From assembly GCA_038087875.1 (NCBI GenBank), contig CM075994.1:5458001-5522000 (forward strand): a stretch of DNA of 64,000 nucleotides. Direction: 5' to 3'. How positions within the stretch are numbered: the first letter of the stretch is position 1; every line of letters starts with the position of its first letter. Below, one piece after another: positions 807 through 58,656 of this stretch. Source of the stretch: Malacoraja senta. Taxonomy: Eukaryota. The notes beneath the pieces are model-generated. The model was not told the origin of the DNA. It ran no database searches and was given only the letters and a program-made list of their open reading frames with translations. The translations under genes were made by a program, and so were the position numbers.

Positions 807-833
807 CTGCTTTCAATTCACGTAACTTTTCTT
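807..833 (-). CDS. Microexon 17, 27 nt, EEKLRELKA
   Basis: gatatttgaccttacag|AAGAAAAGTTACGTGAATTGAAAGCAG|gtaaaa. Confidence 0.8.
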
Positions 834-1579
834 CTGTAAGGTCAAATATCGAAAGGAATTTGGGGTTTAATGGCTTAAACGAAATGCAGTTGTTTTAGCA
901 GCATGTTCACTGATTTAATCATTATTCTGAAGCGGCTCAGCAACACATTCTGCAACACGTGCAAAACAACCTCCCAACTCCCGTAATCATTGTCCCATCT
1001 GATTAACGTTATCATGTCAACCGCATTTTTCACTACACGTCCATCCGCGACACCATTTCCATGGAGTCTTGTATATATCTAAATTTGTCCCTTCGCTTTC
1101 CAACACCTCCAAGGGCACTGACGTTCACTGTAATAGATCTACCATGGGTTGACTTACCACAATACATCACCTCATCCTTGCATTCAACGAAAAATACTAA
1201 CATAACTGATCGGGTTGAGAAACATATAAACCGCAAAACTACTATCTATGCTTTGTCATATAAATTTCCTGACTAGTGTACCATGTGATCTTTCTCGAAT
1301 AAGTCGCTTTTCACACAGACCTCCTTCCCCAACTTCCGTTGGCTCTCTTGGGTACATGCACCAGTTCCTCAGCGAAGCATTCTGCTCTCGATATCCTTCC
1401 ATTGCTTTCCTCGCGAGGATTAATGCAGAGATTGCTACCCATGCAGTGCTGCTTATTCTCCCTTTTCAAAACTCTTTCCATTTCCACCATATTGGATCCC
1501 GTTCTTGCTTTCTGTGTCAGAAAGAGTGACAAAATGCCAATCGTTTTGTTATGGTTATCTGCAACATATCGGGACTCAC

Positions 1580-1606
1580 CATCGAATTGCAAATGCTTCT
1601 TCAAAT
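1580..1606 (-). CDS. Microexon 16, 27 nt, DLKKHLQFD
   Basis: atatttcataacag|ATTTGAAGAAGCATTTGCAATTCGATG|gtgagt. Confidence 0.8.
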
Positions 1607-1761
1607 CTGTTATGAAATATATTTAGGCACGCCAATTACATATTGCTTCGGAAATATGGAACAACATAACCGTTTTAAAATTAAATCTATGAAAAATAGA
1701 AAATCGCGAAATAACACTCATCATCATTTTACAAAATAATATTACTTAGATAAAAACTTAC

Positions 1762-1788
1762 CTATTTCCTTATGTTCCAGTTCCTCAT
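1762..1788 (-). CDS. Microexon 15, 27 nt, DEELEHKEI
   Basis: cattttaatttcacag|ATGAGGAACTGGAACATAAGGAAATAG|gtaagt. Confidence 0.85.
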   Translation of the reverse strand: MRNWNIRK

Positions 1789-1928
1789 CTGTGAAATTAA
1801 AATGTGGACAGTTATATGAAGGCTATTTGCACCAAATCCGAAAGTGCATGCAGAGGGTAATGAGGATTTGGACGACTCTACCTGAAAAATTGGTGAACAA
1901 TTGAATATTAATGTATTGAACGAGAATA

Positions 1929-2105
1929 CAGGGCGCAGCGGTAGAGCGGTAGAGCTGCTGCCTTACAGCGCTTGCCGTGCTAGAGACCAGGGTTCCATCG
2001 CGACTACGTGTGCTGTGTTCTTGTACATTTTCCCCGTGACCACGTGGATTTTCGATAGCTTCGGTTTCTTCCCACACTCCAAAGACGTAGAATTTTATAG
2101 GTTGC
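1929..2105 (+). mobile_element. tRNA-derived V-SINE (HE1-like)
   Basis: A/B-box-like head (GCAGCGGTAGAG...GGTTCCATCG) and V-domain-like core TCGGTTTCTTCCCACACTCCAAAGACGT; related copies at ~4665-4815(-), 9395-9615(-), 9765-9925(+), 26501-26835(+). Confidence 0.75.
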
Positions 2106-10136: not shown

Positions 10137-10194
10137 CACACACACGCACAAACACACACACACACATACACACACGCACACACTCACACACTCA

Positions 10195-14819: not shown

Positions 14820-14855
14820 CTTTGAATTTCAAATTTTGTTTCGCTTCAGTTAATT
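14820..14855 (-). CDS. Microexon 14, 36 nt, ELTEAKQNLKFK
   Basis: ttttattgattttcag|AATTAAC...TTCAAAG|gtaagt; consensus donor. Confidence 0.85.
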
Positions 14856-20000: not shown

Positions 20001-20335
20001 CTCCCATTCCGAATCCGACCTTTCTGTCCTGGGCCTCCCCTATTGATAGAGTGAGCACCACCGGAAACTGGAGGAGCAGCACCTCATATTCCGCTTGGAC
20101 AGTCTGCATCCCAATGGCCTGAACATTGACCTCCAATTTCCAGCAGCCATTGGTGTCACCTCCCCTTCTCAGCTCTCCCTCGGCGCTCTTGCTCCTCCTC
20201 TTCCTTTCTTCTTCCCGCCCCCCCCCCCCCTTCATCAGTCTAAAGAAGGTCGTCGGCCCGAAACGTTGCCGAATTCCTTCGCTCCATAGATTCAGCCGCA
20301 CAAGCAAATTTTCTCCAACAATGTTGTCTACCTTC
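17010..20335 (+). mobile_element. 5'-truncated Penelope-like element (RT plus GIY-YIG, Cys-rich linker suggestive of the Neptune group), frameshifted
   Basis: IKPAGKGGAVAVW, FYLLPKIHKPDCPGR, TMDVHSLYTSIPH, AMGTPMGPS, YLRYIDD, IYCIRCSRCQLIYIGETKR; pLTR tail. Confidence 0.95.
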
Positions 20336-26070: not shown

Positions 26071-26097
26071 CTGTTTTCTTTTCTTCCAACAATTTTT
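26071..26097 (-). CDS. Microexon 13, 27 nt, EKLLEEKKT
   Basis: ttgtgtcctttgcag|AAAAATTGTTGGAAGAAAAGAAAACAG|gttcgt; donor weaker. Confidence 0.7.
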
Positions 26098-27553: not shown

Positions 27554-27577
27554 CACATTCGCGCAACCTTTTAATGG
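27554..27577 (-). CDS. Microexon 12, 24 nt, AIKRLREC
   Basis: ttctgctttctttacttcag|CCATTAAAAGGTTGCGCGAATGTG|gtaagg; strong splice sites. Confidence 0.75.
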
Positions 27578-28448
27578 CTGAAGTAAAGAAAGCAGAACAA
27601 TATTAGCAATACGTCTTCTGATTTACGTATACTGATTATTTGGAGTATTTTGTTAACATTAATCTTGTATAATGTCCAACCATGAAATTACCGAATAATT
27701 GTGTTATGTTTGATTCAATTTCATAAACTACGCTTCCGTTCTTTTCAGTGGGTTGGTACAGTAGCCATCATCCAGATTAGATTATTCAAAGTAGCTGATG
27801 TGAAGACTAGAACAAGTTATCATCGGGATACCCAAATTCAGATGTCTTCATCTTAAGTGTGCCACGGAGTGACTTAGAGCGGGAAGATGTCACTGGTTAT
27901 TTGCTGATTATGTGTCTATATTAACAACGTTGTTCCCTTTAATTTGATCGTTACATGTCCCAAAATGTTGTTCATCTTTACCCCTTGAACGGCATACCAA
28001 GGAAACATCAGATGCTACGGAAGATATGTGCTACCATTCATTTTATATTAAGCAAGGATGATTAAAATTGATAGATTTGTAAAGAACAAGCACTGCACAC
28101 CGAAGACGTAGTTACGTTAGATTTATCCAATGTCTCAAAGATGCGGAATTAATGCGAGTCAATCAAGATACAGATAAGTTGTGGACATTAGGTTTTTGAA
28201 AGAAAAGGTGGCTATTATGCGGACGTTGCTAACATAATCTGAGATAATTAGAGTAGTCATAGATTATTCATAAAAGTATTGAGAGGTAAGTACAATAACG
28301 GAGGTATATAACGATCGCGACCGTCACATAAAGCAAACTGATATTCATAGAATCGACCTCTTCCATACCAGAACTGTTCAAGTATTTTGGGTCACTAGGC
28401 CATTCTTATCTCAAATATTGGAAAATTGAAATTCACGCTTGTGTGTAC

Positions 28449-28475
28449 CTTCATCTTTATCAGTGATCGGAGTTT
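28449..28475 (-). CDS. Microexon 11 (TDKD repeat exon), 27 nt, ETPITDKDE
   Basis: ttgttcattaatttccag|AAACTCCGATCACTGATAAAGATGAAG|gtacac. Confidence 0.75.
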
Positions 28476-28656
28476 CTGGAAATTAATGAACAATAGCTGT
28501 ATACATCAACCAGGTTAAAACGTGTTAATTTTGTGTCGCAGTTTAAACTTGAACGAGATTGCGCCATCCAATGATTTTATGCTTTCATTACTTTGTTTCT
28601 AAGTACATAGATATGCATCTGCCCGGGAAACACCACATGCTTCAACCGGCTTGTTA

Positions 28657-29262
28657 AAAGGTCTGTCTCACGAATCTGCGGTCATTGGCGGCGAAACGGG
28701 AAGAATCTGCCGCCATAGACCGCGCACTCGTGAGAAAGAACAATTCCCGGGCCGTGCGACGGTGTTCCCAACACCGCGCGGTGCAAAAATAAAATCGACA
28801 ATGTCGAAAACACTATCCTCACCGCACAACCTCCACCAGTGATGCACGAGTGCGCACGGCCGCTCGCACGGGCCGCCCCCAGTGTGGGTCGAGCGCCGTG
28901 CGTCAAACCTCCTCTGCCACAGCCTCCGCCAGTGACGCACGTGCCGCCGCCAGTGAGGCACGTGTGCTGCGCGGCCACAGGCACAGCCATCGCTACAGCG
29001 CCGCGATCAGGATGGCCGCCGCCACAGCCGCCGCTGGTGAGTCACGTGCGGGGGGCCGACGTCATCGAAGTCGGCCCGCCCTTTTTTTACTTACCGCAAG
29101 CACGTGGGACCCGCCGTGTTTGAATTAACTCGGCCCCCGCGCAACATCCGTGCAGCGCCCCGGTGGATAGGCTCGACGCTCTCGCCGTTGCCGCGCGGTC
29201 CTCGCTACCGGCGAGGCCGCGCTTCACCGCCGATGACCGCAAACAGGTAAGACACGGCCTTA
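28657..29262. mobile_element. PIF/Harbinger-like MITE
   Basis: TIRs AGGTCTGTCTCAC..TGCGGTCATTGGCGG / CCGCCGATGACCGCA..AGACACGGCCT; TAA/TTA-like flanks; sister copy inverted at ~38548-39085. Confidence 0.75.
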
Positions 29263-29674
29263 AGTGAATGTATATTATGGAATGTTGCGCATATCGACTA
29301 AAAATTGCTTGATATTGAAATCAGCGGTTCCGAATATCAATTTGCACCTGGTCTGCGGGCACTAAGCCGTGCACCCTGGTGTGAAAAAAACACATGCTAC
29401 ATATGAAAGCTTGTGAGTAACTTTTGTCTTCTCCATGCACCATTGTTGTAAGTAAATCCAATCATGATATCCTGAGCTCAAGGCAAAGCCACTATATTCA
29501 ATCACGCAACGAAGATGAATTCCTTCGCATAAGTTAGCATAGCGTGCAGAGATGAGCGTTCTGATTTTAGGATTTCATGTTTAATTTTATTATATTAATT
29601 AACGTGTGTGTTTGTGTGTACGTGGAGGGCTGTGCGTGTGTGTGCGTGTGTGTGCGTGTGTGTGGAAAACACTT

Positions 29675-29997
29675 CTAGGTTCATGAGTATACAAGCCCAG
29701 CCTCTCCATTCTTTCAATATATGACAGTCCCCCCATCCCGGTATTTAAAGTGGTGAATCTTCGTTGCCCTTCCTCAATAGCAAGAACGTCCTTCCTCAAA
29801 TTGGGAGAAAATACTCACTGCTCACAATACTCCAGATGTGGTCTCACTGGGGCCCTGTACAACTGCAGAATGACCTATTTGCTCCAATTATCTACTGCTC
29901 TTCTATGACGGCCAACATGCCATTTGCTTTCTTCACTGCCTGCTGAACCTGCATGCTTACTTTAATTGAGTGATGAACAACGACTCCCAGATCACTT
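29675..29997 (-). mobile_element. CR1 RT fragment
   Basis: MRKDVLAIEEGQRRFT...ERLGLY. Confidence 0.85.
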
Positions 29998-31099
29998 CCC
30001 TCTCAGCGACCCTGAAATGTCAGTGAAAACAACAGCGAGAAATTTGCTACAGATATAAATCGTTGCATGGAATTAAAATAAAAGGTTTATATGCGATATG
30101 GCTACGAAGGAAACTCAAACAATATATTGAAAAGTATATTTCAACTGTAGCGTCCTTACTCTGTTTAGAGGTAACCAGCACAAGTAAAACTGTCAACATA
30201 TATATTTTTGCATGGAACAACTCTGCCACAATGTTCCGTCATGTACGCGTGATACTAGTCATATAGTTATGCAAATTTCAAACTAGACGTGCGAAGTACA
30301 TCCTACATGGGAACCATCTACAATGCAGCGTAACTACAGATGTAATAGATTTGCCTTTGTATACACGGCCATTGTTATAAGCGACATAGAAATGCTATAA
30401 AACTCCATCTCATCCAAGTTCAAATTCAAGTTCAAGTTCGAATTCATTGTCATATGTACCAAATCAGATACAGTGATAATTATTTATTCCTTTGACCTTT
30501 TCATATATGTGTGAGACGTCAACTCTGGTAATAATACCTTGGATGAAAATAGTGGGTAAGCTCCAACCATGAGCCTGTGTTATCCGCAAATGCATCCGTT
30601 GCTCTTGACCGTTAAACTTGCTTAAACATTGTTCAAACTATATTCCAGCGAACAGAAGACCAAAGAAACAATATATGATGAGAAGATGTGACGGTGCTTC
30701 CTGGCATTTTATTTTGAAGTGAAGATGAAAATAATTGATAGATGTGTAAAGAATAACAATACCGTACGGAGCATTCATATATTCATTTCACTGTATCCAA
30801 TACATCCATGAAGCAGAATTAAGACAATCTAATCAAGACACGGAGTGGTTGTGGGGAAATGATTTTTGGAAGATTGGTTATAATTTGACACTCGCTGTCG
30901 TACATTGAGTAAATTCCAGCACTCAATAGTTAATAATAAGTGCATTGAGAGGTAAATGTTAGAAAGGCCGTGTTTTACAAAAATCTAATATTATGCAGTG
31001 AGTACTCCTTTTCCACTCTAGAAATGTTCAAGGATATTAGAGCAATATGATATTTTGTGTTTCAAAGATTGGAAAATTCAATTTCGCGCATGTGCATAC

Positions 31100-31126
31100 C
31101 AGAATCTTTATCAGTTTTTGATTCAT
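31100..31126 (-). CDS. Microexon 10 (TDKD repeat exon), 27 nt, DESKTDKDS
   Basis: ttcttcattttgtgccag|ATGAATCAAAAACTGATAAAGATTCTG|gtatgc. Confidence 0.8.
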
Positions 31127-32165
31127 CTGGCACAAAATGAAGAATATCAGAAAGAGTAATTTCTATTGATTAATACGACTTCAATGTACCCACACATTAT
31201 TCTCAATTGCATAGTGTGGGAAATCTGCACGTTACATGTACCTCCAATGACTGAATTCATGATATATATGACTTGTTATATTTCATTGCGTGGACAAAGA
31301 AAATAATGTGATTCTGGTTTTTTTCCGCGATAATATAAATGATTCATAGAAGCAAATTTATACTTTGAGCGGGGAACACACATTTATTTAAACTGCTTGA
31401 CAAGCGAATGCCCATGCTCGAATATTGGGCTTAAACTCATAATACGTAGAAATCAGCGGTCAGACAACATCCTGCTCCATCATGCATTGTCAAGATCCCG
31501 ACATGTCGTGTATTTCCTTCCGCTAATGCTTCATCATCAATTGAATTATCTCCGCAATATTTATCATGAAGTACATAATGTGGATTTTAGGTGGTCCGAA
31601 TATCAATTTGGAGCACGTCTGCATGCGTTACACCTGCTGCCTGCTGTGAAGGATCGCAGAACGCAGCTAGGAGCCTATGATGACACCTGTGTTCACCCCG
31701 GTACATTGTTGTCTGTAAACACAACCAAAACACGCTGAACTGAAGGCAAATTCACAATAGTTAATCAGTAAATGCCGTTGCATTTGTTAGAATACGTTAA
31801 CGTGTAAAGATGATGATGTTCCTTTTAATGACAACATATTTATTGTACGTATTTTAATTAATGTTATACATTTAAATTACGTTTAATATTTTACGAATAA
31901 TGTGTGTATCGTTTTATTTCTAATTTACTTTCGTGTTCCGCGTATAACTGTTTACCATGAACTTGGTCAGTCAAGTCCTTTGACTGACCTGGACATCATA
32001 AATTCTTCGAGATAGGCTGGATATTAGTTCTTGTCACTTGTAATCCAGTCGCTCCATTTTAAGGAAGAGGTCGTTTTACTGTATATCACTTAGCACGTCT
32101 AGGCAACTTCGTGCCATTAAGAACGGTATCAACAAGGGGATCAGTGCAGACATTGAACACAGGAA

Positions 32166-32196
<31 letters not shown>

Positions 32197-33578
32197 CACC
32201 CGTCCAAGTGTGTTCGGTCCATGGCTTCCTGGGTAACGTTGTCGTCAATCCTTCAGCAATGACCACTTCGGCTACATACAACATATTAAGAATATATGTG
32301 CATAGAGCGTGCAATGGTTTCCATTTGTCAACCGGACATGATATTCCTTATCTGAATTTTATATTAATGGGTTCAATTTTAACAACGACACATTATTCTG
32401 CCTCTTTACATGAAACACGTGCTTAACGTGCCTACTGACAATTTGATATTCATCGTTTGATATAACACTGAATACGTCTGTCCTCATTGCCATGCACTTC
32501 GTGAACTCCACCAATTTGAATTTAAAACGAACTTACAAGCAAAACATTTGACATGTTGTTCCTGTGTTATGGATTTATTGTGGCTGTGTGTGTTTATGTG
32601 TGCGTGCGTGTGTATGGTAGTGAACATTGACTTCGGAAATTCTCACTCAGCTACACTGCAATCTAAGTGAAATCAAGAGCGAGAAATATGCTGCACATCG
32701 AAACCGTTGCATGGGAAATAAAATACAAAACATATGTGCTTGAGACTGCGATGAAAATAATATATACTGAAACAAACTTATTTTGTTAGCGTCCTCAATG
32801 TGCTTTGAAGCATCTACCAATAGTAACACTCAAAAGGTTATTTATTCTTGAATGCAACAACTATGTCATAATTTGCCGTCATGTTCGCGCGATTCCAGTA
32901 GTTTAGTTATCCAAGATTCATATCAGACGACCAAAGTGTAATGGGTAACATATACAGTGCAAAATCACTGCATAAGTAATAGATTTTATATTGAAGACGC
33001 GTCTATTTCAAATATTAACATGTTTAATCCGCAAAATGCGACGATCAGTGTGACCCGAGCAAGTCAAAATCGGAGCCAATAACTTGTAGACATTATATGA
33101 GACTCCATGAGGTTTTTTGTGCCTTTGCACAATTTATATATGTGTGAGACTTGAACTCTGGTAATTATGCCTCAGAGAAAAGTGGTGGGTAAGCTCAGAT
33201 CATGTACCTCTATTGATACATTGCCATTGTTTGTTAAACTTGCTTAAACTTTATTCATGTATATGCCAGCGAACTGATTATCAAAGCAACAATACATGGA
33301 CAGATGATGTGATTGTGTTTCCTGACGTTTTGCTTTGAGACAGAAATTATTAAAATTGACAGATGAGTCAAAGACTACGAATACATTCGGAAGACTAAAT
33401 ATATTACTTTCATTGTATCCAATGCATAAATAAAGCTGAATTAACGCGATCTAATAAAGAAACGGGGAGATTGTCGGAATATGATTTTTGACAGAAACAT
33501 TGGTTATAATCTAGAACTCGCTGACAAACATTGAGTTAATTCGAGTATTCAAACGTTATTGATAAGTGAATTGAGAGG

Positions 33579-34210
33579 TAATGCTCCTGTCCCACTTAGG
33601 GAACCTGAAGGGAAACCTTGCGCGGTGAAGATGAAGGTAAACGGCTGTCACAGAGCACGGTAAGTCCTTTAGAGAGCGCGGGAGGGAGGGAGAGAACGGT
33701 AAAGAAGTGGAGAGAAGGACAGATAAGGGGAGAGAGAAGGGGAAGAGAAGGGGAGAGAAGGGGAGCGAGAAGGGGTGAGAAGGGGAGAGAAGGGGTGAGA
33801 AGGGGGGTAGAAGGGGGGAGTAGGGGAGAGAATGGGGGAGTAGGAGTGGAGACAATTTTAATAAGTTTAATAAAGTTCGCGGGCATTTAACCTTCCGGCT
33901 GATTGTCTAGGTTCTGAAAACCAAAGATCCTTCAGGATTTTTGTTGAAAACTCCAATGAGCCAATCAAAATGGCCGGTCAGCGAAGTAGATTGCCTTCGA
34001 CAGCTTGTAAGTAAATAGCGACCCCACTCCACCGGCTTCCACCAAACGGCAACCAATTTTTAGTCGAGGTCTGTTTTGATTTTGTTGAAATAATCGCAGG
34101 AACATAGAAGAAGCCTCGACTACGCGGAAACCACTTTCGACCATTAGGGAGAGTGACCAAAACCTCCTGGAACCTCCGGGAACCTCACGGAAATCTTGGG
34201 TGGGGCGCAA
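33579..34210. mobile_element. Harbinger-like MITE with purine-rich internal tract
   Basis: Begins TAA-TGCTCCTGTCCCACTTAGG; GA-rich tract at ~33680-33850; interrupts a tandem-array unit. Confidence 0.55.
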
Positions 34211-34388
34211 ATGAGACATGGGCATAAGTGTAAGAACGGAGGGATGGAACGGTTTGGACACTCTTTACAAAAATAAAATATTATTTATACAGTAGTCCTT
34301 TCCCGCACTAGAACTGTTCAAGGATATTAGGCCACTCTGACATTTCGTATCTCAAATGATTGGAACATTCAAATACGTGCATGCATAC

Positions 34389-34415
34389 CTGCATCTTTAT
34401 CAGTTTTGGTTTTAT
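34389..34415 (-). CDS. Microexon 9 (TDKD repeat exon), 27 nt, DKTKTDKDA
   Basis: ttcttcttttcgtgccag|ATAAAACCAAAACTGATAAAGATGCAG|gtatgc. Confidence 0.8.
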
Positions 34416-36476
34416 CTGGCACGAAAAGAAGAATAAATTCTAATAATTCATTACTCATCAAGTTACCCACATATCTTTCGCAATTGCTCTGTGTAGGATT
34501 CCTATATGCTGCATGTACCAGTAATTACTGAAATACTAATATCCATGACGTTATATTTCATTGTGCAGACAAAGAAAATAAAGCTACTTCTGTTGTTTTT
34601 TCTGCGGTAATATAAAAGTTTTGTAGAATTAATATTAGTCTGTGCATATCTTCCAATTTTTCAATTTTATATCAACTGGTATAGAACGTCTTATTTTATG
34701 TCGCTTTGTTGTAATGGAAATTTATTTCCCCACCCCATCCGCCGTACAGGGGTTAAACGTCTTGAATCCATGGAAGCTGATAAGATAGATTCATCTAATC
34801 GGGAAACATATATTGCTTGTGTTATGAAGCACATACTGCAGCTAGAAACTTGAGGGTGACTTTTGACTCCTCCCTGAGACATTATTGACTGTAAACCCAA
34901 TCTTTATACCACGAACGGCAGCCGAGGCTGCTATAGTTAATCGCGCAGCGCAGACGAATTCCTGAGCAGAAGTTTGCCGAGTAGAGATGAGCGTCTATAT
35001 TTTATGATTTCTGGTTAATTTTAGGTATTTTAATTTATTTGTTTGTGTTAATGTGTTTGCGCCTGCCTGTGTTTTTCAGATATTTGACTTCAGAAACTCT
35101 GCCAAACTGCAATTTCAGTGAAAACAATAGCGAGAACTATGCTACACATATAAATCGTTGTATCTGAGTCGAAATAAAAAGGATTATATGCGCTTAAGAT
35201 TAAGAAGGATACTCAAAAATTATACTGGAATTTACATTTCAATTGTAGCGTCCTTGCTGTACTGAGAAGCTAGTAATACTGAAACATATTACTTAATCTT
35301 GAATGCGACAACTATGTCATTATTTACCGTCATGTTCGTGTGTTACCAGATCATACAAAACGAGCAATGTGCTTCCTGCATTGGAACCATCAACGGTGCA
35401 GCGTAACTACATAAATGACATAACTACATAAACTACATAAACTACATAAATAATACATTTTTGTTTAAATACGCGCCTATTGCAATTATAAATATATTTC
35501 ACCTGCAAAATGCGACGATCAGTGGAATCGTCGCAAGTCAAAATCTGGGGCATTAACTAATAGAAATCCGTTTAAATCATTATACCGTTGATCATTTTAA
35601 ATGTATGTGATACGTGAAGTCTGGTAATGATACCATGGATAAAAATAATGTGTGAGCTCAGATCATGTGCCTCTTTTAACCGCAAGTTAACCCATGGCCC
35701 TTGACGGTACAACTTGCTTAAACGTTGTTCCTCTCATGATTCAGTGAATGAAAGATCAAATGAACTATACATGGACAGAATGTGCGACTCTTCTTCTTGA
35801 CATTTTACTTTAAGGCAAAGATGAATAAAATTGATAGATGAGTAAAGGACAACCATTGCGTACAGAAGACTTAGCATATTACGTTCACTCTATCCAATGC
35901 ATCAACGAAGTAGAATTAAGGCGATCTAAACTACACACGAAGAGTTTGTGGGAATTTGATTTTTTAAAGGAATATTGGTTTGCTATCTGGAACTCGGTGA
36001 CATACATTCAGTCAATTCCAGCAGTCAAAGGTTATTGATGAGAGCATTGAGAGTTTAGTGTAAGAGTGGATGGATGAAACGGCCAGGAGCATTTTTGGAA
36101 AAATAACATATAATTTAGAGAATAGTCCTTTTCCTTTCCAGAACTGTTCAAGGGTATCAGCCTCAAAGTAAAAAGCCTGGAAGCACTGTCAGAACTTCTG
36201 CCCATGTATCGTTTATTTGATGTTCAATTCGCTGGAAAATAAGATGAACAAAGTTTCAGAAGTTTAAACATCAAAGGCAATGGATAAACTAGCGGTTAAC
36301 AAAGGCACATGATTTAAGGGTACCCACTATTATTATGCATGGTCTCATTACCAGACTTCACTTCTCACATGTATATCTATTGCTCAAAGATATAATTAAC
36401 CAAATACAGTCTTATAACAATCTGACGTTTTATGTATCTCAAAGATTGGAATATTCAAATTCGCGCACATTCATAC

Positions 36477-36503
36477 CTGAATCTTTATCCGTTTTTGAAT
36501 CAT
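36477..36503 (-). CDS. Microexon 8 (TDKD repeat exon), 27 nt, DDSKTDKDS
   Basis: cttcttcatttcgttgcag|ATGATTCAAAAACGGATAAAGATTCAG|gtatga. Confidence 0.8.
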
Positions 36504-38547
36504 CTGCAACGAAATGAAGAAGACCCATAAGAATATTTCCATTATTTCATTATTCATCAAGTTGCCCACATATTATTTTCAATCGCATTGTGTATGACAC
36601 GTAAGCATAATATCAATTACTTCTTATATTTCATTGGGTACACAAAGACAATAATGGTTATAAGCGTTTTCGGTATTTTGACTGCGAATTATCAGGCCAT
36701 AGGTCACTCGCGGTAGACTTTCTCCGCAGCTATAATGCTGGGTTGTGCACAGGCCTGTGTTTCGTCCGTGATCGGGGTCGGGCCCGGTTCTTCGGCGCAG
36801 TTGAGTTGCTGTTGAGCATTACCCGTCCCCTCCCGTGTGTCCCGTCCCTGTCCGGGGGTGTCCGGGATGGCCCTGGGCTGGCGATCACTGACCTGCTACC
36901 CGTGCGGAGGGGGAGCGCTGGCACCGGTTCGGCTCTGCTACGGCTCCGGGGGGCGCGTTCCCTGGCGGACCTGGGCCCATCGGCTGCGCCTCTCGCCTTT
37001 TCCAGTGGCTGTCGGTTGGCCCGATCGGTGCCGGCGGGGGCCGAGCGCCGTTCATCGGCGAGATGCACACCTGCAGCGTCTCGGCGGGTAAGGCATCATC
37101 TCTGAAGAAGGGCCAGAACCAAAACGTCACCCATTCCTTTTCTCCGGGGATGCAGCCTCTCCCGCTGAGTTCTTGCAGCGTTTTGTGTGTGCCCCGTTGA
37201 TAGCTGGTTCTCGGCTTTCGCCGGCGACGGATTGAGTTGGACGGCGGCCAATAAGTTGGGCGGGGTGTGCGTCGGAGAGCGGCTTCCTCGGGAGTTGGAG
37301 CGGGGTTGAGCTAGAGTTGGCGCTTCTTCTCCACGTTGGCTTTAGGCCTGTGACTGCCCCTAATCCGGGCCGCTGTCCCGTCGGTCCTGGACTGTTGCTT
37401 GGCCCTGCGGGACAGGCGGAGTTGTGCTGGGGATCATGCTTCAACTCTGCTCAGGCTGTGATACGTCGCTCCTCCGGTCCGCTGTCTCGCCGCTCCGGGG
37501 CGGTCGGTTGGGGCGGCGGGACAGGAGCTGTGGTTGGCGCTTTTCCACGCTGTCTGTGGGCTTGTGGATCGCCGCTCTTCCGGGCCGCAGTTCGGTGGCT
37601 CCGGACGTTACAACGGTCCGGACGTCACACCCTGGTCCAAAAGGCATCGTCGAACCGGTCTAAAGAGTGTTCCCGGCCGAAACGTCTTGTATTTCCATCC
37701 GCAAATGCTTCATAATGCAATTTGTTTTAAATTTATCATTATACGTATGGGCGCATTTCAAAGACTCTCAAGGACGCCTTGCAGATAAGCAGACTACAAA
37801 ACATATAAGCAGAATAAAAAAATTAAAAATAGTAGGGATTTCAACAACATCACAATACACAAATTAAGGACATAATTCATTCTAAAGGCACAAAAAAGAA
37901 AATCAGAAACACAATTTGAGGCGAGAGCAGCGCCCGCGTCCACTCTCTCCGCAATGAGTTCTTTGCGCAATTTAGATTATGAAATGCTTACTTTTAAAGT
38001 AAGGTTTTCCGAATTTCACTTTGTATTAGTCAGCATGGGCTAAGCCCTGGAGCCTGTTGTGAAGAAGCGCAGAACGCAGCTCCATTATTTGGTTGACATC
38101 TGTCTCCGCCCCGGGGCATTGTCGACTGTAAACCCGCTCGCTCCCCTCAACTAACAGCAAAGCCACGATGGTTAATCAAGAATTGCAGATAATTTGTTCG
38201 AATAGGATAACCTGTAAAGATGAGGGCCTTCCTTTTAATACTGCATGTTTATTTTAGATATTTTAATCAATATATTTAATTTGGAATTGTATCTAATATT
38301 TTACTCATATTAATGCACACGTGTACCTCGTATTTTGCTTTATCGTGGACTTTTAAAAAATGTGGACAAATTCTTTGACTAACTAAGATTTAAGGTCGAC
38401 GAGATACACCATGTGCTGGACATTAGACCTTGCCACAGGTGGCCGATGGCCCCGTTTCAATGAAAATGGTGTTTACTATCAGTTAACATATATTGGCAAC
38501 TGCGTGACGATGTTATGGCATCCTAAGCTTAGACGCACTTTCCATTC

Positions 38548-39085
38548 GTAATGGATCTGTCCCACGGGTTTGCGGTCGTTGGCGGTGAAGCGCGGCGTCG
38601 CCGGAACAGGGGACGGCACGGCAACCACGATAGCGCCGCACGGATGTTGCGCGGGGGGCCAAGTACGGCCGGTTCAACAAGCTTGCGGTTTCGGCTGATG
38701 ACGTATTTCGGATCGCGGGGCTGTGGCGGCGGCCGTGCCGCACACGTACCTCACTGTCGGCGGCTGTGGCGGCGGCCGTGCCGCACACGTGCCTCACTGG
38801 CGGAGGCTGTGGCGGTGCAGGTTCGACTTACGGCGCCCGTGCCTCATTGGCGGCGGCTGTGGCGGTGACCGTGCCGCACTCGTGCCTCACTGGCGGCGGC
38901 TGTGCGGTAGGAACATATTTTTGGACAGTGTTGGGTTTTGTTTAGCACCGTGCGGTGTTGGGAACAACGCCGCACGGCCCCGGAATTGTGCGTTTGACCG
39001 AGCCCGCGGTCTCTGGCGGCCCAGGAGCGGTAGATATTTCCTGTTTCGCCGCCAATGACCGCAGACTCGTGAGACAGGCCTTTTA
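38548..39085. mobile_element. PIF/Harbinger-like MITE (same family as 28657-29262, opposite orientation)
   Basis: TIRs CTGTCCCACG.. / ..CGTGAGACAGGCCT; internal ~39-bp GC-rich subrepeats. Confidence 0.75.
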
Positions 39086-39244
39086 CACTGGCAAAATATA
39101 ACTTATATTTTGCAACAACTGTTTCATAATGTCCCATCATTTTTGCGCGAAACCAATTGTTAAGTTAAAGAAAGTTAATTTAAGACAAGCGAAGAGCATC
39201 CTTCATCGGAACCACCGAAAGTGCATCGTAACTACAGAACTAAT

Positions 39245-39607
39245 AGATTTGCTTTAGAATATACGGATTCGTCCGCCCGACGCAGGGGCACCGACAGGAG
39301 AGCTTCGACTGCCCCGACGCGGGAGTTTCGATAGCCCGACGCAGGGGCTTCGTACGATGGCTACGGGAGCTTCCATCGCCCCGACCGCCGATGGTTCGAC
39401 TGCCCGACCGCGGGAAATTAAAGAGGGAAGAGGATTCTACTTTATGGCCTTCCATCACAGTGAATGTGGAGAATCCGCGGAGGTGGGTGTTTATGTTAAC
39501 TTTCATGCAGTTTTGTGTCTTGTTGCTTTTTGTCGCTGTATGGTAATTCGAATATCACTGTACCTTAATTGGTACATGTGACAATAAAAGACCTTTGAAA
39601 CCTTTGC
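39245..39607 (+). mobile_element. Non-autonomous GC-rich retroposon with a LINE-derived tail
   Basis: GC-rich subrepeats, core GCCTTCCATCACAGTG, tail GTGACAATAAA plus short repeat. Confidence 0.55.
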
Positions 39608-40585
39608 ACTGATTGAAATGTTTCATTTGCAAAATGCGGCAATCTGTCTAATCCTAGCAAGTCAAAATCTGGGCCAATAACTTGTAAAATGTCTTATAAG
39701 CCTCCATTTAGTTCATTATACATTTGAACATTTCATATATATGTGAGACGTGAACTCTAGTAACGATGGCATGGATAAAAATAGTGGGTAATCTCAGATC
39801 ATGTGCCTCTGTTAACTCTAAGTTGATCCATTGCCCTTGATTGATAAACGTGTTTAAACTTTGTTCTTCTTATGTTGTAGCGAGTGAAAGACCGAAGACA
39901 CATCATGAGGACAGAAGATGTGACTGCTTCTGAGCATTTAACATTAAGGCAGAGATGATTAAATGTTATAAATGAGTTAAGGACAACCAATGCGTACAGA
40001 TGTCTTAATATATTACGTTTTCTGTGGGTTCAAGGGAAGAGGGATCACTTCGCTGCCCTTTTTGCCACCAATCTTCCGATGACCACGCACAAGACGCCAT
40101 TGTATGCAGATGCCGAGAAATATGTACAGTTTTGGCTGAAATATTTCTAATCTTGTGATGTAGACTCGGTAAGATGGCTTTCACTGTATCCAATGTATCA
40201 ATGAAACAGAATTAAGGAGATCTAAACAAGAAACAGAGCGGTTGTGCGGATTTGATATTTTACAGAAACAAGTGTCAAGAGTCAACAGTGTTTTGTTGTC
40301 ATATGTCCCAGATAGAACAAACAAATTCTTACTTGCTGCAACGCAACAGAATGTGTCTGTACATTAAGTTACATTGCGTTCATTCCAGTACTCAAAAGTT
40401 ATCGATAAAAGCATTGAGACGTAAGTGTAAGGACGGTGCATATAACGCCCAAGGCCGTTTTCACAAATCTAAAATCACCTTTGCAATATAGTGATTCTCC
40501 GCGCCAGAACTGTTCAATGATATTAGGGCACTATGACGTTTTGTATCCCAAAGATTGGAACATTGAAATTCGCGAATATGCGTAC

Positions 40586-40612
40586 CTGAATCTTTATCAG
40601 TTATTGCTTTTT
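40586..40612 (-). CDS. Microexon 7 (TDKD repeat exon), 27 nt, EKAITDKDS
   Basis: ttcttcttttcgtgccag|AAAAAGCAATAACTGATAAAGATTCAG|gtacgc; paralogous to four other exons. Confidence 0.8.
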
Positions 40613-40699
40613 CTGGCACGAAAAGAAGAATAGCCATGCATAATGTCAATTGATTCATTATTCATCAAGTTACCCACATATTATTCTCAATTGAATTGC

Positions 40700-41398
40700 G
40701 CAGGATACCTGGATCGATGATGGTTTTGCGATCGACGAGCGATCAGCGGTCGATGAGCGTGTTAGGTGGGGGTGTCGGAGGGGAAGACAATGGGGACTTG
40801 GCAGAAGCGTGTGCCTCGGCGACAATTGAAGCCTTGGCGGCGGCGGGGCGTCGGCGGGGCCTCGGCGGCTGCGGGAGCCTCGGTGACGTTGGTGTCTCGT
40901 GATCGACAAGCGATAAGCGGTGGATGAGCGTGAGGGGGGGGATGATAAATGGTACCCGGCGTGTGGGGACCGCCGTGAAGACCAAAGGGGACCCGGCGTG
41001 GTGCGGCCGTCGTGAAAAATAATGGGATCCGGCGTGGGTGGACGGCCGAGAACAACAATGGGGAACCGGCGTGGAGGAACCGACGTGAGAGTCGGTGGGA
41101 GGAGAAAGGGAGACCAGGTATGGGTGATGGGAGGGCACTCTAGATTTTGAATCCTCTGCCCAGGGGATAAGCCTGCGTTCGTTTCTTTGTTCGTTCGTTC
41201 GTTCTGGTTAAGGTGCTGGGCACACGGCAGCCAGCCAACAGTCGCTTGTCTTTTTCTTCATTTATTTCACTTTTAATTTAATTTTAATTTCCGGTTTTCG
41301 TGTACCTTGTTGTGTTTTGTTATCAGACCAATCTGGTGCCAGACCAATCTCCCTCCGGGGATGGATAAAGTTTCATCGTATCGTACCGTATTATATCG
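40700..41398 (+). mobile_element. Non-autonomous retroposon with (ATCGT)n-like tail
   Basis: GC-rich insert interrupting an array unit; ends GGGGATGGATAAAGTTTCATCGTATCGTA. Confidence 0.5.
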
Positions 41399-43574
41399 TT
41401 CCTGCAAATGCTGAAATCCTAATATTTTTGTTATAGTTATTTGCGGAGACAAAGAAAATAATGGAGATTCTGGGGGGTTTCCACGATGGTATAAATGTTT
41501 GTCAGAAGCTACATTGGCCTGTGTATAATCTCTACAATTTTATATCCATTTGTTTAACAGTTGTTATTCTTGTATCCCTCTAATTTTTTAACTCGAAAGA
41601 AATTTCCCTGCCTCATCAGCTGTAAAGTGGTTTAAGGTTTAAAGCTTTAATTCCTTGAATGATAATCAGATAGTTATTCATCTGAGCGGACAATAAATAA
41701 TAATTTGAACTGCATGACATGCACGAATATTGGACATAATCATAAATGTGTTATCACTCATCGGGCCAGGCAACATTCAGGTCCAACAGGCATATCAAGA
41801 TCCGATCTCAAGAGAGGTCCTGACTCGAAACGTCGCGGATTTCCGTCCGCATCTGCCTCATAATCCATTGGGTGATTCTAGCAATTTTGATTATGAAATG
41901 CTTAATGTTAAAGTTAGGTGTCCGCAATATCACTTTGTAATTATTCTCATGGGCTAATCCCTGCACCGTGCTGTGTTGATGCGCAGAACGCAGCTGGATG
42001 ACTATTGGTGACAACTGTCTCCACCGCCGGTCATTGCTGACTGTAACCCGATCATTACAGCATGAACTAACAGGAAATGTATGGTTAATCAGGAAATACA
42101 TCAGCATTTGTTAGAATACGTTAACGTTTTTATGACTGCATGTTTATTTTAGGTATTTTAATTAATTTATTTAATTTGAAATTTTGTTTCATATTTTACT
42201 AATATTGTTATTTATGTTGTTATTTCTAATATACTTACGCATTTATTGTGGACTTTTACAAAATTGTGGACAAGTCCTTTGACTGACCGTCGAGATATAT
42301 ATGGGCTGGATACTAATTTTTGTCACTGGTGTTCCAGTCGCTCCTTTTTAAGGAAGAGACGGTTTTATGTCAAATGGCACAGTGAGCAAGAGTCGGATCA
42401 GTGCAACACCGAAATAAGTGTTAGACCTATTCGTACCCGTCCAAGTATGTTCGGTCCATGGATTTCAGATTCAGCAATGAAGAATTCGGCAACCAACATG
42501 CAAAGTATGAAAATCTGCGCAGAGGGCGTTACTTGATTTCCCTTCATCAACGCGATATGTATTTTTTTAAATTAATTTCAATCAATCGATCTAATTTTAA
42601 CATCAACGCTTATTGCCGTTCTTATGATTTGTTACACGAACCACAGACTTAACATGTCCTGCTGATATAACTTGATATTTGTCGTATGATCTAACACTGA
42701 ATACATCTGTCCTTACACCCATGTATTTGGTGAATTCCACCATTTTCAATTATACACTGCCTTAAAAACGAACTCACAGGCAAAAACGTTTTACATGTTT
42801 TTCCTGTGTTCTCTGATTGAGTGTGTTTCTTAGTTTGTGTGCGTGTGTGTATGTGCGCGTGCGTGCGTGTGTGCTTGTGTGTATGTATGAACGGCAACTG
42901 CGCGCATGTGTGAACGGAGAATCGGAACAATCTGAGTGTGCTGCAAGCGCTGAATGCAGAAGCCATGTTTATTTAGCCAATCATCTTCGGAAATACCCAC
43001 TGCACTACACTTCAATGTAAGAGGAAAATAATAACGGAAATGTGCAACACATAAACATTGAAGCATAATAATTGAATTAAGAGATTTATATATGCTTGAA
43101 ACTAAGAAGAATGCATAAAAAATGCTGAAACAAATTTCAATTTTAGTGTCCTTTATGTGCTCAGGAGCAGTTATCACTGGTAACACTGTGTTAATGTTAT
43201 TTATTCCTGGTTAGACCAACGTTTTTTTAAACTAATTTACCATCATTTTCGAGCGATAGCAGTCGTTTAAACAACGTTCATAAGGGACGAGATAATTACA
43301 TCCTACAGAGGAACGACGACAGTGGATCATCAATTTAAAAGCAATATCTTTCCTTCTGCGTACGCAGCTATTGCGGTTATTAACACATTTCATTTCCAAA
43401 ATGAGTCGGGCCGTGTGATCTCATCAAGTCATACTCTGGACATTAACAGCAGCAAAGCAAGACTATTTTTAGTTCCTCATAAACTTAACCAACTCAGATA
43501 TATATGAGACACATGAATTCTGGAAGGTGTACCACGTGTAAACATCCATTTCGTGATTGTTGATTATTTCTTAC

Positions 43575-43601
43575 CTTTTTCGGCTTGCAACTTTTTAATT
43601 T
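43575..43601 (-). CDS. Microexon 6, 27 nt, EIKKLQAEK
   Basis: ttctattttttcatacag|AAATTAAAAAGTTGCAAGCCGAAAAAG|gtaaga. Confidence 0.85.
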
Positions 43602-48989: not shown

Positions 48990-49016
48990 CTTCATCTTTT
49001 CGCCTGAGCTGCTCTT
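48990..49016 (-). CDS. Microexon 5, 27 nt, EEQLRRKDE
   Basis: ctatttttttatgcag|AAGAGCAGCTCAGGCGAAAAGATGAAG|gtgatt. Confidence 0.8.
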
Positions 49017-50983: not shown

Positions 50984-51019
50984 CGACATCCTTCTTGAAG
51001 GCCTCTAGTACATCTCCGC
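50984..51019 (-). CDS. Microexon 4, 36 nt, GGDVLEAFKKDV
   Basis: tgcttgtgtatcggcag|GCGGAG...GATGTCG|gtgagc; phase 1/1, open; polypyrimidine tract modest. Confidence 0.6.
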
Positions 51020-51965: not shown

Positions 51966-51992
51966 CTGCTGGTTTAGTAATTGATTTATCTT
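51966..51992 (-). CDS. Microexon 3, 27 nt, EDKSITKPA
   Basis: cctttatatatttttag|AAGATAAATCAATTACTAAACCAGCAG|gtaaga. Confidence 0.8.
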
Positions 51993-54005: not shown

Positions 54006-55783
<1,778 letters not shown>

Positions 55784-56292
55784 TATTTCCTATATTTTCC
55801 CATTTTCACAGAACCCTTGGTTCCACAAAGTTCAAGTGTCTCTGCTTTATCCTTTCCTTGAGAAAAAGGCGTAGCATTTCTTGAATTCCTTTGACATAGT
55901 ATTACCTACCCATTCTCCATGGGGGGGCCTTAAAGTGAACCCAAGCTAAGTTTATTAATCGTTACATCATTTTATTCTTATAGGTGCTCACATAGGCCAA
56001 TATAACTTTCCACGATATTTACTACTCTATTGTTCAACGTTGCGATCCTCTTGTTAGTATTCTGGGGATATGTTAGGCCGGTCACATGATAATTACCAAA
56101 TTTGAATTCATTGTAGATTATTGCGGTACAAGAGGAAACCAAAGGACATAACCATAAACATGTTGTTACTTTCTGATTAACCGTCCTTCATAAGGAGGAA
56201 ATAAGACAATGTATTCAGATGTAGCAGGTGCTATCATAATGCTACGCACCTGAAATTGATCAGAAAATGCTATTTTAAGTTTCAGCTCTCAC

Positions 56293-56328
56293 CTGTTTCT
56301 TTAAGGAGTTTTCTTAATGCTAGTATTA
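56293..56328 (-). CDS. Microexon 2, 36 nt, VILALRKLLKET
   Basis: ttttcattttgattgtacag|TAATAC...GAAACAG|gtgaga; phase 1/1, open; an internal AG would give a 27-nt alternative. Confidence 0.7.
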
Positions 56329-56449
56329 CTGTACAATCAAAATGAAAAATACAAATTAGTATAATTAGCTGTGGACAATTGAGTTCTGCATCGATCAATG
56401 CTCAGATTTATGTCGTTGGTTAAGTGTATGCAATAGACTTGGACGAAAA

Positions 56450-57265
56450 CATCGATGGTTTGTTTTGTAGGTATGCAGACAACAGAACAATTGGTGGAGG
56501 CGCAGACCGTGAAGAAGGCTGTCAAGGGATGCATGAGTATATATGCCACAAACAGGTATGAGAGGAGAAAGGTAATAAGTTATTTAATCCGAGTGTGTGA
56601 GATGTTGCACTTTGGGAGGGAAAATGTAACGGGGAAGTGCGCAGTAAGTGACAGTATCTTTAACAACATTCATGTACATAGGGGTATTGTAATCTTAGTT
56701 CGTACTTCCCGCATAGTAGCAGCATGGGATCTTTAGTCGGAGACTATTTGGAGTAGTGTGTGTACTTTTGCTCGCAACATTTCATGAATAAAGTTAAAGC
56801 TTTGGAGTGGATGAAGATGGGTTTTAGCAGAACACTCCCTGTTTACATTTGTATTTGCTACAAAGGGCTATAAAGACCAAATAATATGTTGGCAAAGGTT
56901 GGAATGTTTCGCCGAAACGTCGGAGAATGAGAGGTCACTATATACTGCAGATGAACACAGTAATATGAAAAGCATAGGTACGGAAGAATGCCACGTTATT
57001 TTCCCCTGAGATTGGAAATTTCTAATGTTTGAGCATTTGTTTGAGGTGAGGAAAGAAATAAAAGAAAATTAGCGAAAATTATTGGAAGTGCTTGGAACTC
57101 GTCCCAATGGTGGTTGTGGAAGAAATCATTGCAGGTGGCTTTGATACTCTTTTTGATAGATACGTGAGTATGCAGGGATATGGGCAGAAGGGATTCGTAT
57201 AAATTGACATAATGGGCAGAACAAATATCATGGGACGAATTGACTGTTCTTGTGCTCCACTGTTC
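56450..57265 (+). mobile_element. Highly decayed CR1 3' fragment
   Basis: Residual CEMLHFGR motif and CR1-like 3' layout. Confidence 0.55.
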
Positions 57266-58632
57266 TTTGTCTCATGTTATAACGTTCAAAGGATGCATTC
57301 ATAATTTTTATCGACGCCAGTGAAAATATGACAATTTGAGTCGCTAAAACATTCGGACAAATATTTTCTGAACGAATAACGGGGAGATTAAAAGCAATGC
57401 AGCAGCAGAATCTCAAGATCATCTCCGTATATTCATCCATAGCTAGGCTTGGCGTCCATTGCCGAAATTTGACAGTTCGCTATGTACCACTGGCATCGTC
57501 ACTGGTAAAATAAGGAATATTTCTAGCTATTTGCAAACTAAATTCGTGAGGGAGAACGTACATTTCTAAGTAACTAACTGCAGGGAGTCGTTGGAGCTGT
57601 TTTCGCAATTGAACCAGGAAGCATGCGTTTTTGGTACGAGAAAGATACGTGGTTATGAAGCAATGGGCGTTGATTTAAATAAGTAAGTGGAAATTTGGTT
57701 TCGAGGTTCCAATCACACCTTCTTCAATGACAGATTGAAATAAATTGTCCTATGGCACAGTTTTGCTCCCGATTCGCATTACTGCCAGGAATACCGTATG
57801 CTTTGCCAAGGAACAAAACAACAATATCGTGGAATTCTCATGTTTTAAATGCATGAATCAGCTCATGGGTCACATGAAATCTGGTACAGAATGCCCATGC
57901 CAACATATCTGCAGTATAGTTTTGCATCTGTGCGGAACGTAGCGTAACTGCAAGATCCTAGAACATGGTTCTGAAAAACTATATCAGTATTCCTCTCGGG
58001 ATGAGATAATTGGCTTCCAATTCCAATATTAACTTATTTGTGCAAGAGCCCATTCTGTACTTGCTATTGGATGCCATTTGATTTCACTTTAACCGGAGAT
58101 CCATTCATCGCACTCCGGCCAATTCTAACAGGTAATTAATATAATTTCCTTTCAATACCTTGGTGCAATTCGGGGCATTGAGGTTTCTACGATTAAATGC
58201 TATGACAAGGGATTTGATTTAGAATGCTCATACCGCAACACAATTCAACAATGGAAAACAAATATTATCGTCAAAACATGATTCTTGGCAACTTTCGGCA
58301 TTTAGCGTCAGTTTGACTTGTCAATAAATAGCAGAATTGCAGAGCTTTCCTTACGAATATAACAATAATATTTTGCAAAGTCAATTAGCAATCGATGTCA
58401 TTCACTCATGCTATGTAAATATGTAAATATGCTACGCGTTAAATGGTATCAACGCAAACTATTTTGAAGGATTTGTAACACCCTATTTTAGCATGAAAAA
58501 TCGATATGAATAGAGGACAACGAATTGTACAATTCCCATTAAATCTGCGTCAATCTGGTCTCTCAAATGTAATTATGATGGACATATGTTATGGTTAAAA
58601 AAAATTGCTGCTGGTGGCAAGTATGCTCTTAC

Positions 58633-58656
58633 CTTCATCTTTTTGCTTCTCTGTTT
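58633..58656 (-). CDS. Microexon 1 of minus-strand host gene, 24 nt, (E)TEKQKDE
   Basis: Minus strand reads catattttccgaacag|AAACAGAGAAGCAAAAAGATGAAG|gtaaga; 3n length, phase 1/1, open. Confidence 0.75.

What the first reader, a model, noticed from the sequence alone, without database searches (positions are those of the whole stretch)
807..58656. Hidden minus-strand gene built from at least 17 symmetric phase-1 microexons
Seen: 17 segments of 24, 27 or 36 nt, all on the minus strand and all in non-transposon DNA. Each has a pyrimidine-rich AG acceptor and a GT donor, ends in G, and has a length divisible by 3. Joined in order they give 480 nt with no stop: ETEKQKDE-VILALRKLLKET-EDKSITKPA-GGDVLEAFKKDV-EEQLRRKDE-EIKKLQAEK-EKAITDKDS-DDSKTDKDS-DKTKTDKDA-DESKTDKDS-ETPITDKDE-AIKRLREC-EKLLEEKKT-ELTEAKQNLKFK-DEELEHKEI-DLKKHLQFD-EEKLRELKA. 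None is visible in the ORF track. Established: runs of tiny symmetric exons encode the cytoplasmic coiled-coil tails of butyrophilin and chicken BG proteins, and the luminal region of triadin. Inference: the Leu/Ile-spaced E/K content favours a butyrophilin/BG-like coiled-coil tail, here mostly in 9-residue rather than 7-residue modules. Any exon can be skipped in frame, so tail length could be combinatorially tunable. The gene cannot be named from this window, and the exons were selected by eye using these same criteria, so a few may be false and others missed.
Basis: partly seen in the sequence, partly recalled or inferred. Interest (0 to 1): 0.9.

Follow-up and report, generated by a model that had tools for sequence, protein, structure and literature searches.

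The report
Skate microexon-built coiled-coil gene family
The 17 tiny exons are real and are the middle of a long gene in a skate-like fish that builds a coiled-coil protein from about 40 interchangeable 9- and 12-residue pieces; it belongs to a shark-and-ray family of B30.2-domain relatives in which no immunoglobulin or membrane part was found, so it does not look like a butyrophilin.

Summary
All 17 segments exist and far exceed chance: 11 strict calls on the minus strand, 0 on the plus strand, at most 1 in 20 shuffles. They are the middle of a gene (gene C) with about 41 phase-1 microexons over at least 185 kb. It lies in a cluster of about six paralogs on contig C18. The neighbouring paralog D ends in an intact B30.2 (PRY/SPRY) exon. 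That domain retrieves RefSeq models from an electric ray and a catshark: coil plus B30.2, with no RING, B-box or Ig domain, and isoforms differing by 6-12 residue blocks. Gene C aligns collinearly to a B30.2-less ray paralog that has nine such isoforms. No butyrophilin-like IgV or IgC exon matched C18. Duplicated exons keep splice sites and frame while residues drift (dN/dS about 0.8). Best reading: a soluble, coil-only member of a chondrichthyan B30.2 clade whose length changes by exon birth, death and skipping. A role as decoy or adaptor for its B30.2 sisters is inferred only. No RNA from this organism was available, and both gene ends are unresolved.

The parts
58633..58656 (-). 24-nt phase-1 microexon (weak acceptor); first of a three-exon unit duplicated upstream at C18:5528581
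56293..56328 (-). 36-nt microexon, heptad-like; copies upstream and in paralog E
51966..51992 (-). 27-nt microexon with a possible tandem acceptor giving 24 nt
50984..51019 (-). 36-nt microexon of the recurrent class mapped by the pattern search
48990..49016 (-). 27-nt microexon
43575..43601 (-). 27-nt microexon
40586..40612 (-). 27-nt microexon, copy 1 of five polar Thr/Asp/Lys repeats
36477..36503 (-). 27-nt microexon, polar repeat copy 2
34389..34415 (-). 27-nt microexon, polar repeat copy 3
31100..31126 (-). 27-nt microexon, polar repeat copy 4
28449..28475 (-). 27-nt microexon, polar repeat copy 5 (weak donor)
28039..43269 (.). Block of tandem exon-plus-intron duplications (pieces 65-81% identical) that produced the five polar repeats
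27554..27577 (-). 24-nt microexon
26071..26097 (-). 27-nt microexon, weak sites; least certain of the 17
14820..14855 (-). 36-nt microexon
1762..1788 (-). 27-nt microexon
1580..1606 (-). 27-nt microexon, weak acceptor, but a similar module (4 of 8 residues) is in the ray protein
807..833 (-). 27-nt microexon, last in the window; 11 more candidates follow down to C18:5423539

Best explanation
The window holds the middle of gene C, a coil-only member of a chondrichthyan family of soluble coiled-coil/B30.2 proteins. Shown from sequence: about 41 symmetric phase-1 exons of 24-36 nt; growth by tandem duplication of exon plus intron; a sister gene with the same modules ending in B30.2; no family-type B30.2 exon for gene C. 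Shown in relatives by predicted RefSeq models only: the modules are spliced together, single modules are skipped, and the proteins lack Ig, RING and B-box domains. Inferred: the product is a cytosolic helical rod in which a 9-plus-12 residue pair keeps the three-heptad register, while the five polar repeats in this window form a non-coil insert. Selection acts mainly on frame, splice sites and length, less on residues. Inferred function (about 0.3): the rod oligomerises with its B30.2-bearing sisters through shared modules and acts as a spacer, adaptor or decoy that sets B30.2 valency, most plausibly in innate defence. The confidence below refers to identity and anatomy, not to that function.
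For: Enrichment over controls. In-script splice of 41 exons aligns to ray protein P0012 over 423 columns at 29% and 69.7 bits; 0 of 100 exon-order shuffles (max 53.9) and 0 of 100 residue shuffles reach this. Gene D aligns to coil-plus-B30.2 protein P0005 at 68.2 bits, 0 of 100 order shuffles. D's last exon hits Pfam SPRY at E 3.8e-12 and BTN3A1, TRIM21 and pyrin B30.2 structures. Only C18:5710013 and C18:3733606 carry this B30.2 subtype above 40% identity. Ten of 153 B30.2 domains form a clade (SH-aLRT 100, quick tree) whose named members are all sharks, rays, skates or a chimaera. P0012 and P0005 share coil modules (E 3e-10). Across 112 non-independent duplicate pairs, splice dinucleotides are 92% identical, exons 74%, introns 75%. 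12 of 13 copies found by homology alone are intact against 7.8 expected under neutrality. Hydrophobic periodicity peaks at 3.45-3.55.
Against: No RNA from this organism. The window's 17 exons alone align weakly to P0012 (29.6 bits; 2 of 100 order shuffles reach it). The 5' end lies beyond an assembly gap, in about 90 kb of contig C4996 that was searched only by the genome-wide domain searches, not read. The 3' end is ambiguous: the next acceptor gives a stop after two residues in C and B but is lost in A2, and gaps lie at C18:5453167 and 5410966. Pfam PRY and SPRY searches missed D's own B30.2, so a divergent domain could be missed again. dN/dS near 0.8 also fits relaxed constraint. The 12-of-13 test is weak (P about 0.012, copies not independent). 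Periodicity power at exactly 3.5 is low in gene C (0.01). No binding or localisation was tested.
Confidence: 0.7

Rival explanations
1. Gene C is the cytoplasmic tail of a membrane protein of butyrophilin/BG type whose leader, IgV and transmembrane exons lie in the unread 5' region.
For: Phase-1 microexons followed by B30.2 is the butyrophilin tail layout (PMC4046983 passages). BG genes have Ig-V, TM and many 21-nt exons (PMC5938342 passages). The 5' end is unread, the V-set search scored only 150 of 1517 candidates, and P0012 starts with a short hydrophobic stretch.
Against: 0 of 59 BTN-like V matches and 0 of 40 IgC matches on C18 or C4996. No Ig domain in the family's RefSeq proteins from ray, catsharks, skate or chimaera. 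Gene D's exons match the ray protein to within about 10 residues of its start.
Confidence: 0.08
2. Gene C is an ordinary coil-plus-B30.2 gene like D whose B30.2 exon is hidden in a gap or lies further downstream.
For: Gaps at C18:5453167 and 5410966. The last microexon ends on the same base as D's last microexon before B30.2. No conserved terminal exon was found. The ray protein's tail looks repeat-derived.
Against: Only two B30.2 exons of this subtype in the assembly, both on the plus strand and each closing another array. At least four arrays (A2, B, C, E) would all have to lack theirs. Nine ray isoforms have no B30.2 (Pfam run on two of them).
Confidence: 0.1
3. Gene C is a decaying duplicate: it may be transcribed, but the product has little function and the array survives because symmetric exons tolerate duplication.
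For: Exon identity equals intron identity and differences are even over codon positions (0.245, 0.278, 0.248). Decayed exon copies occur in B and D. No conserved last exon.
Against: Splice dinucleotides 92% against 75% in introns, and exon indels are rarer and mostly in frame. 12 of 13 unselected copies are intact. A coil-only gene with collinear modules exists in an electric ray.
Confidence: 0.1
4. The family is secreted, a coil-plus-B30.2 or coil-only protein left after loss of the Ig and TM exons from a butyrophilin-like ancestor.
For: Skate protein P0170 of the sister subfamily starts with a signal-peptide-like stretch, judged by eye. Phase-1 junctions suit a leader exon (recalled).
Against: P0005, P0166 and P0168 start with polar sequence; one P0012 isoform starts inside the coil. 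No signal-peptide predictor was run.
Confidence: 0.07

Closest known systems
RefSeq XP_069775418-28, Narcine bancroftii, auto-named golgin A6-like / trichohyalin-like (P0007-P0015)
   Same: Collinear coil modules, no B30.2, no Pfam family above cut-off, isoforms differing by 8-12 residue blocks.
   Different: Only 29% identical; no clear match to the five polar repeats of this window. The name is a compositional label, and exon structure was not seen for that gene.
RefSeq XP_069775384-90 (Narcine, A33-like) and XP_038672306-10 (Scyliorhinus, TRIM39-like)
   Same: Same coil modules; likely orthologs of sister gene D or A1; isoforms skip 6 or 9 residues.
   Different: They end in B30.2, gene C does not. 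Despite their names they have no RING or B-box by Pfam.
Chicken BG proteins and the soluble zipper protein
   Same: Long coil from many tiny split-codon exons, varying exon number, selection on tail variation, a soluble tail form (PMC5938342, PMC4046983, passages).
   Different: BG has Ig-V and TM and uses 21-nt exons in compact genes; here 27/36-nt exons with kilobase introns and no Ig found.
Butyrophilins
   Same: Phase-1 microexons leading into a terminal B30.2 exon (gene D).
   Different: No IgV or IgC found; this genome's butyrophilin-like genes lie on other contigs; the family's B30.2 forms a separate clade.
Enterophilins (architecture recalled: soluble leucine zipper plus B30.2)
   Same: Soluble long coil plus B30.2 matches gene D's layout. 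Enterophilin-1 binds SNX1 and lowers surface EGFR (PMC13749957 passage).
   Different: Mammalian and heptad-based (recalled); no sequence was compared; gene C lacks B30.2.
Schistosome micro-exon genes (MEGs)
   Same: Genes made mostly of symmetric exons of 36 nt or less that can be skipped in frame (PMC8293314 passages).
   Different: MEG products are parasite proteins exposed to the host; homology was not tested and is not claimed; here the product is a vertebrate coiled coil.

Membership tests
Butyrophilin | Extracellular IgV domain | tested here: not met
   0 of 59 matches on C18/C4996 with a BTN-like V query, 121 of 121 candidates scored; none in homologs. The generic V-set search was partial (150 of 1517).
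Butyrophilin | IgC (C2-set_3) domain | tested here: not met
   0 of 40 matches on C18/C4996, 150 of 181 scored.
Butyrophilin | Transmembrane exon | tested here: inconclusive
   No credible TM exon in 324 kb by a crude hydrophobic-run scan; the 5' region in C4996 was not read.
Butyrophilin | Terminal B30.2 exon in gene C | tested here: not met
   Present in D and A1, none near gene C; assembly gaps leave some doubt.
Chicken BG | Tail of many tiny symmetric split-codon exons | tested here: met
   41 phase-1 exons.
Chicken BG | 21-nt heptad exons | tested here: not met
   Lengths 27 (28), 36 (11), 24 (2); none of 21 nt among the 41 listed.
Chicken BG | Single IgV plus TM | tested here: not met
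   IgV not found; TM inconclusive.
TRIM | RING and B-box before the coil | tested here: not met
   No RING, B-box or TRIM_CC hit in P0005, P0166, P0168, P0170, P0012; control P0067 does hit TRIM_CC. Tested on homologs, not on gene C's unread 5' end.
Chondrichthyan coil/B30.2 clade (defined here) | Shared coil modules in the same order | tested here: met
Chondrichthyan coil/B30.2 clade (defined here) | Clade-type B30.2 domain | tested here: not met
   Met by sister gene D, not by gene C, which is placed by its coil only.
CD23/CD209-type lectins with a coiled stalk | C-type lectin domain after the stalk | tested here: not met
   0 of 29 matches on C18, 112 of 112 scored; split exons lower sensitivity.
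Enterophilin | Sequence kinship and intestinal expression | not tested
   No sequence or expression data; architecture recalled.
Triadin | N-terminal TM and triadin homology | not tested
   No triadin query was run; the homologs found are unrelated to it by name and Pfam.

The most novel reading that the evidence does not exclude
Sharks, rays and chimaeras have an undescribed B30.2 clade without RING or Ig in which a kit of 9- and 12-residue microexons is duplicated, lost and skipped combinatorially. This yields rods of tunable length, and coil-only paralogs such as gene C co-assemble with the B30.2-bearing ones to tune an innate sensor or trafficking adaptor: a vertebrate counterpart of schistosome micro-exon genes.
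Probability: 0.25. Interest if true: 0.78.

Novelty: new variant of a known kind. Interest (0 to 1): 0.55.

Why it matters
Genes made almost wholly of 24-36 nt exons across 200 kb cannot be seen by ORF or Pfam annotation and carry misleading automatic names (golgin-like, TRIM39-like, A33-like). This cluster exposes a B30.2 clade spanning chimaeras, sharks and batoids, with a butyrophilin-like tail layout but no Ig or RING domain. That bears on how TRIM and butyrophilin architectures relate. It also offers a natural test of how coil length and register evolve through exon birth and death, with a 9-plus-12 residue solution in place of the 7-residue BG one. Function is untested.

Tried and rejected
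RNA evidence: no RNA holder listed; X1 and X2 contigs run through introns and no exon-to-exon joint was among the 15 joints shown (172 more not shown), so they say nothing on expression. A profile of single exons was too short to search. P0008 against the genome gave nothing useful because the exons are too short. A query from D's 5' end returned only repeats; two searches found A1 and a minus-strand piece at 6.089 Mb but nothing in C4996. Pfam PRY and SPRY genome searches scored 150 of 686 and 150 of 696 candidates and missed D's B30.2, so they were not used as evidence of absence. The pattern search was not enriched genome-wide (24 hits against 51 for the control) but 11 of 24 fell on C18. 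The conserved block after the last microexon was considered as a coding exon and left open: frames disagree among C, B and A2, and the ray tails showed no credible match in the part that was displayed. The AlphaFold model of the catshark protein is low confidence (pLDDT 50.9; helices then a beta domain) and carries no weight. The complex prediction was never queued. The careful tree did not finish; the quick tree is reported. One search counted two copies twice (L002 and L003 overlap); one search corrects 14 of 15 to 12 of 13. The head-to-head layout of C and D was rejected as unreliable: C4996 continues differently past the gap. Earlier findings: none. Literature searches (listings only) showed no description of this family; subscription papers and supplements were not covered.
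Full report
Observation. The window is C18:5458001-5522000 of a 1.94 Gb assembly. Its long ORFs are retroelement fragments. A scan for short AG...GT segments with approximate, recalled splice matrices gave 11 strong minus-strand calls, 10 of them multiples of three, against 2 on the plus strand. At score 8 or more, 12 of 14 minus-strand calls are multiples of three, against 1 of 3 on the plus strand and a mean of 1.0 in 20 local shuffles. A relaxed scan returned 16 of the 17 segments among 21 candidates, and the last is at 50984-51019. They sum to 480 nt without a phase-1 stop, and 0 of 289 possible junctions create one. Three have weak sites.

Extent. I read 324 kb, C18:5398001-5722000. The same minus-strand array (gene C) runs from 5608534 to 5423539, about 41 exons of 27 (28), 36 (11) and 24 nt (2), median intron 2.8 kb. 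I chose this list by hand from scans that required a stop-free phase-1 frame, so the lack of stops inside exons is by construction, and a few members may be wrong. An assembly gap at 5612743 cuts the 5' end. Contig C4996 overlaps it at near identity and continues about 90 kb past the gap; I could not read that part. Two more gaps lie at 5453167 and 5410966. After the last microexon, which is conserved with its splice sites in two paralogs, the next acceptor gives a stop after two residues in C and B but is lost in A2, so the 3' end is open.

Paralogs. A second array of about 41 exons (gene D) lies on the plus strand at 5615896-5707083, including many 27-plus-36 nt doublets, that is 21 residues or three heptads. 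DNA searches place further copies, all on C18: A1 about 3.66-3.73 Mb, A2 about 3.79-3.90, B about 4.82-5.00 (80-86% identical to C in several blocks, introns included), E about 6.00-6.08, and a minus-strand piece at 6.089. Only coordinates and short stretches of these were seen.

Identity. A motif scan found a PRY-like start at 5710022. It is an intact terminal exon with a phase-1 acceptor 2.9 kb after D's last microexon, Pfam SPRY E 3.8e-12, matching BTN3A1, TRIM21 and pyrin B30.2 structures. Its only close paralog in the genome is at 3733606 (71%); none lies near gene C among 150 of 681 candidates scored, and one search lists the same two plus three on C5. It retrieves an electric-ray RefSeq model at 63%: a coil plus B30.2 with only SPRY and PRY by Pfam, whose isoforms differ internally by 6 and 9 residues. 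The coil of that protein retrieves a second ray gene without B30.2, nine proteins differing by blocks of 8, 8, 11, 12 and 23 residues. Gene C spliced in a script aligns collinearly to it: 29% over 423 columns, 69.7 bits, with 0 of 100 exon-order shuffles reaching that (max 53.9). The window's 17 exons alone give 29.6 bits, reached by 2 of 100. A catshark model shares the coil modules and B30.2. In a quick tree of 153 B30.2 domains, D, the ray and the catshark group together (SH-aLRT 95) inside a 10-row clade (100) whose named members are sharks, rays, skates and a chimaera. None of the clade members scanned has RING, B-box or Ig. A little-skate domain is 91% identical to a C5 copy, so the organism is a skate or close batoid. 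These RefSeq entries are predictions; that their isoforms rest on RNA reads is my inference.

Butyrophilin test. A BTN-like V domain from this genome found 59 matches, none on C18 or C4996, with all 121 candidates scored. The BTN IgC family found 40, none there, 150 of 181 scored. C-type lectin found 29, none on C18. The generic V-set search was too partial to count.

Evolution. The five polar repeats at 40612-28449 arose by tandem duplication of exon plus intron (pieces 65-81% identical) and have no clear counterpart in the ray protein. Over 112 non-independent duplicate pairs, exons are 74% identical, introns 75%, splice dinucleotides 92%; gap columns are 1.2% in exons and 3.7% in introns; differences are even across codon positions. 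dN/dS averages 0.77 over random sets of about 15 disjoint pairs; the 0.61-0.94 spread reflects pairing choice only. Of 13 copies found by homology alone, 12 keep sites and frame against 7.8 expected (P about 0.012, copies not independent). Decayed copies exist in B and D. So frame and splicing are held while residues turn over fast, which fits either relaxed or diversifying selection.

Mechanism. The product is rich in Lys, Glu, Leu and Asp, with hydrophobic periodicity peaking at 3.45-3.55 (low power at exactly 3.5 in C) and hydrophobic residues concentrated at positions 2, 5 and 9 of the 36-nt exons. I infer a soluble helical rod whose length is set by exon number and skipping. Because coil-only and coil-plus-B30.2 genes share modules and sit together, the likeliest role is oligomerising with the B30.2 sisters as spacer, adaptor or decoy (about 0.3). 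The context of B30.2 genes suggests innate defence (inference). A cytoskeletal or trafficking role, as for the chicken zipper protein (PMC4046983 passages) or enterophilin-1 (PMC13749957 passage), is as open. None of this was tested.

Comparison and novelty. It works like a BG or butyrophilin tail in gene layout (PMC5938342 passages) and like schistosome micro-exon genes in skippability (PMC8293314 passages), but fails the Ig, 21-nt and RING membership tests. Homologs are in RefSeq under misleading automatic names. Eight literature searches (listings only) and one review passage (PMC6795676) showed no description of the family; closed journals and supplements were not seen. Verdict: real, a new variant of a known kind, interest 0.55.

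Noticed in passing
window 5830-8290 (-): Fragmented LTR-retrotransposon pol (reverse transcriptase, RNase H, integrase by Pfam) inside the 13-kb intron of gene C.
   Followed up: partly
window 36-740, 17750-20340, 44360-48320: Several decayed Penelope-like elements (reverse transcriptase and a weak GIY-YIG hit), two preceded by 27-bp tandem repeats.
   Followed up: partly
window 54914-55613: 700-bp TG microsatellite.
   Followed up: no
G000:C18:5660148-5689780 (L022-L025): Gene D holds roughly a dozen recent 27-plus-36 nt exon doublets, some 90-95% identical with their introns, plus copies with broken splice sites.
   Followed up: partly
G000:C18:5710011-5710531 (L027:8011-8531): Divergent intact B30.2 exon missed by the genome-wide Pfam PRY and SPRY searches; clade members share an unusual Trp-Asn motif.
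   Followed up: yes
G000:C5:15346056, 17412028, 17439331: Three more B30.2 exons of the same chondrichthyan clade; the little-skate homolog P0170 has a signal-peptide-like start, judged by eye.
   Followed up: no
G000:C4996 and C18:5612743: C4996 overlaps gene C's 5' part at near identity and runs about 90 kb past the scaffold gap, so the head-to-head layout of C and D may be an assembly effect.
   Followed up: partly
G000:C4250, C4298 and other small contigs; C18:9.8-11.6 Mb: Butyrophilin-like V, IgC and B30.2 exons cluster on unplaced contigs, and the genome has about 690 PRY/SPRY candidates, many on distal C18.
   Followed up: no
window 34385 and 28444: Single-base differences in run X1 within five bases of two donor sites; could be allelic splice variants.
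   Followed up: no
G000:C18:4759013-4761484: A further copy (77%) of DNA downstream of gene C, beyond paralog B's end; may mark another family member.
   Followed up: no
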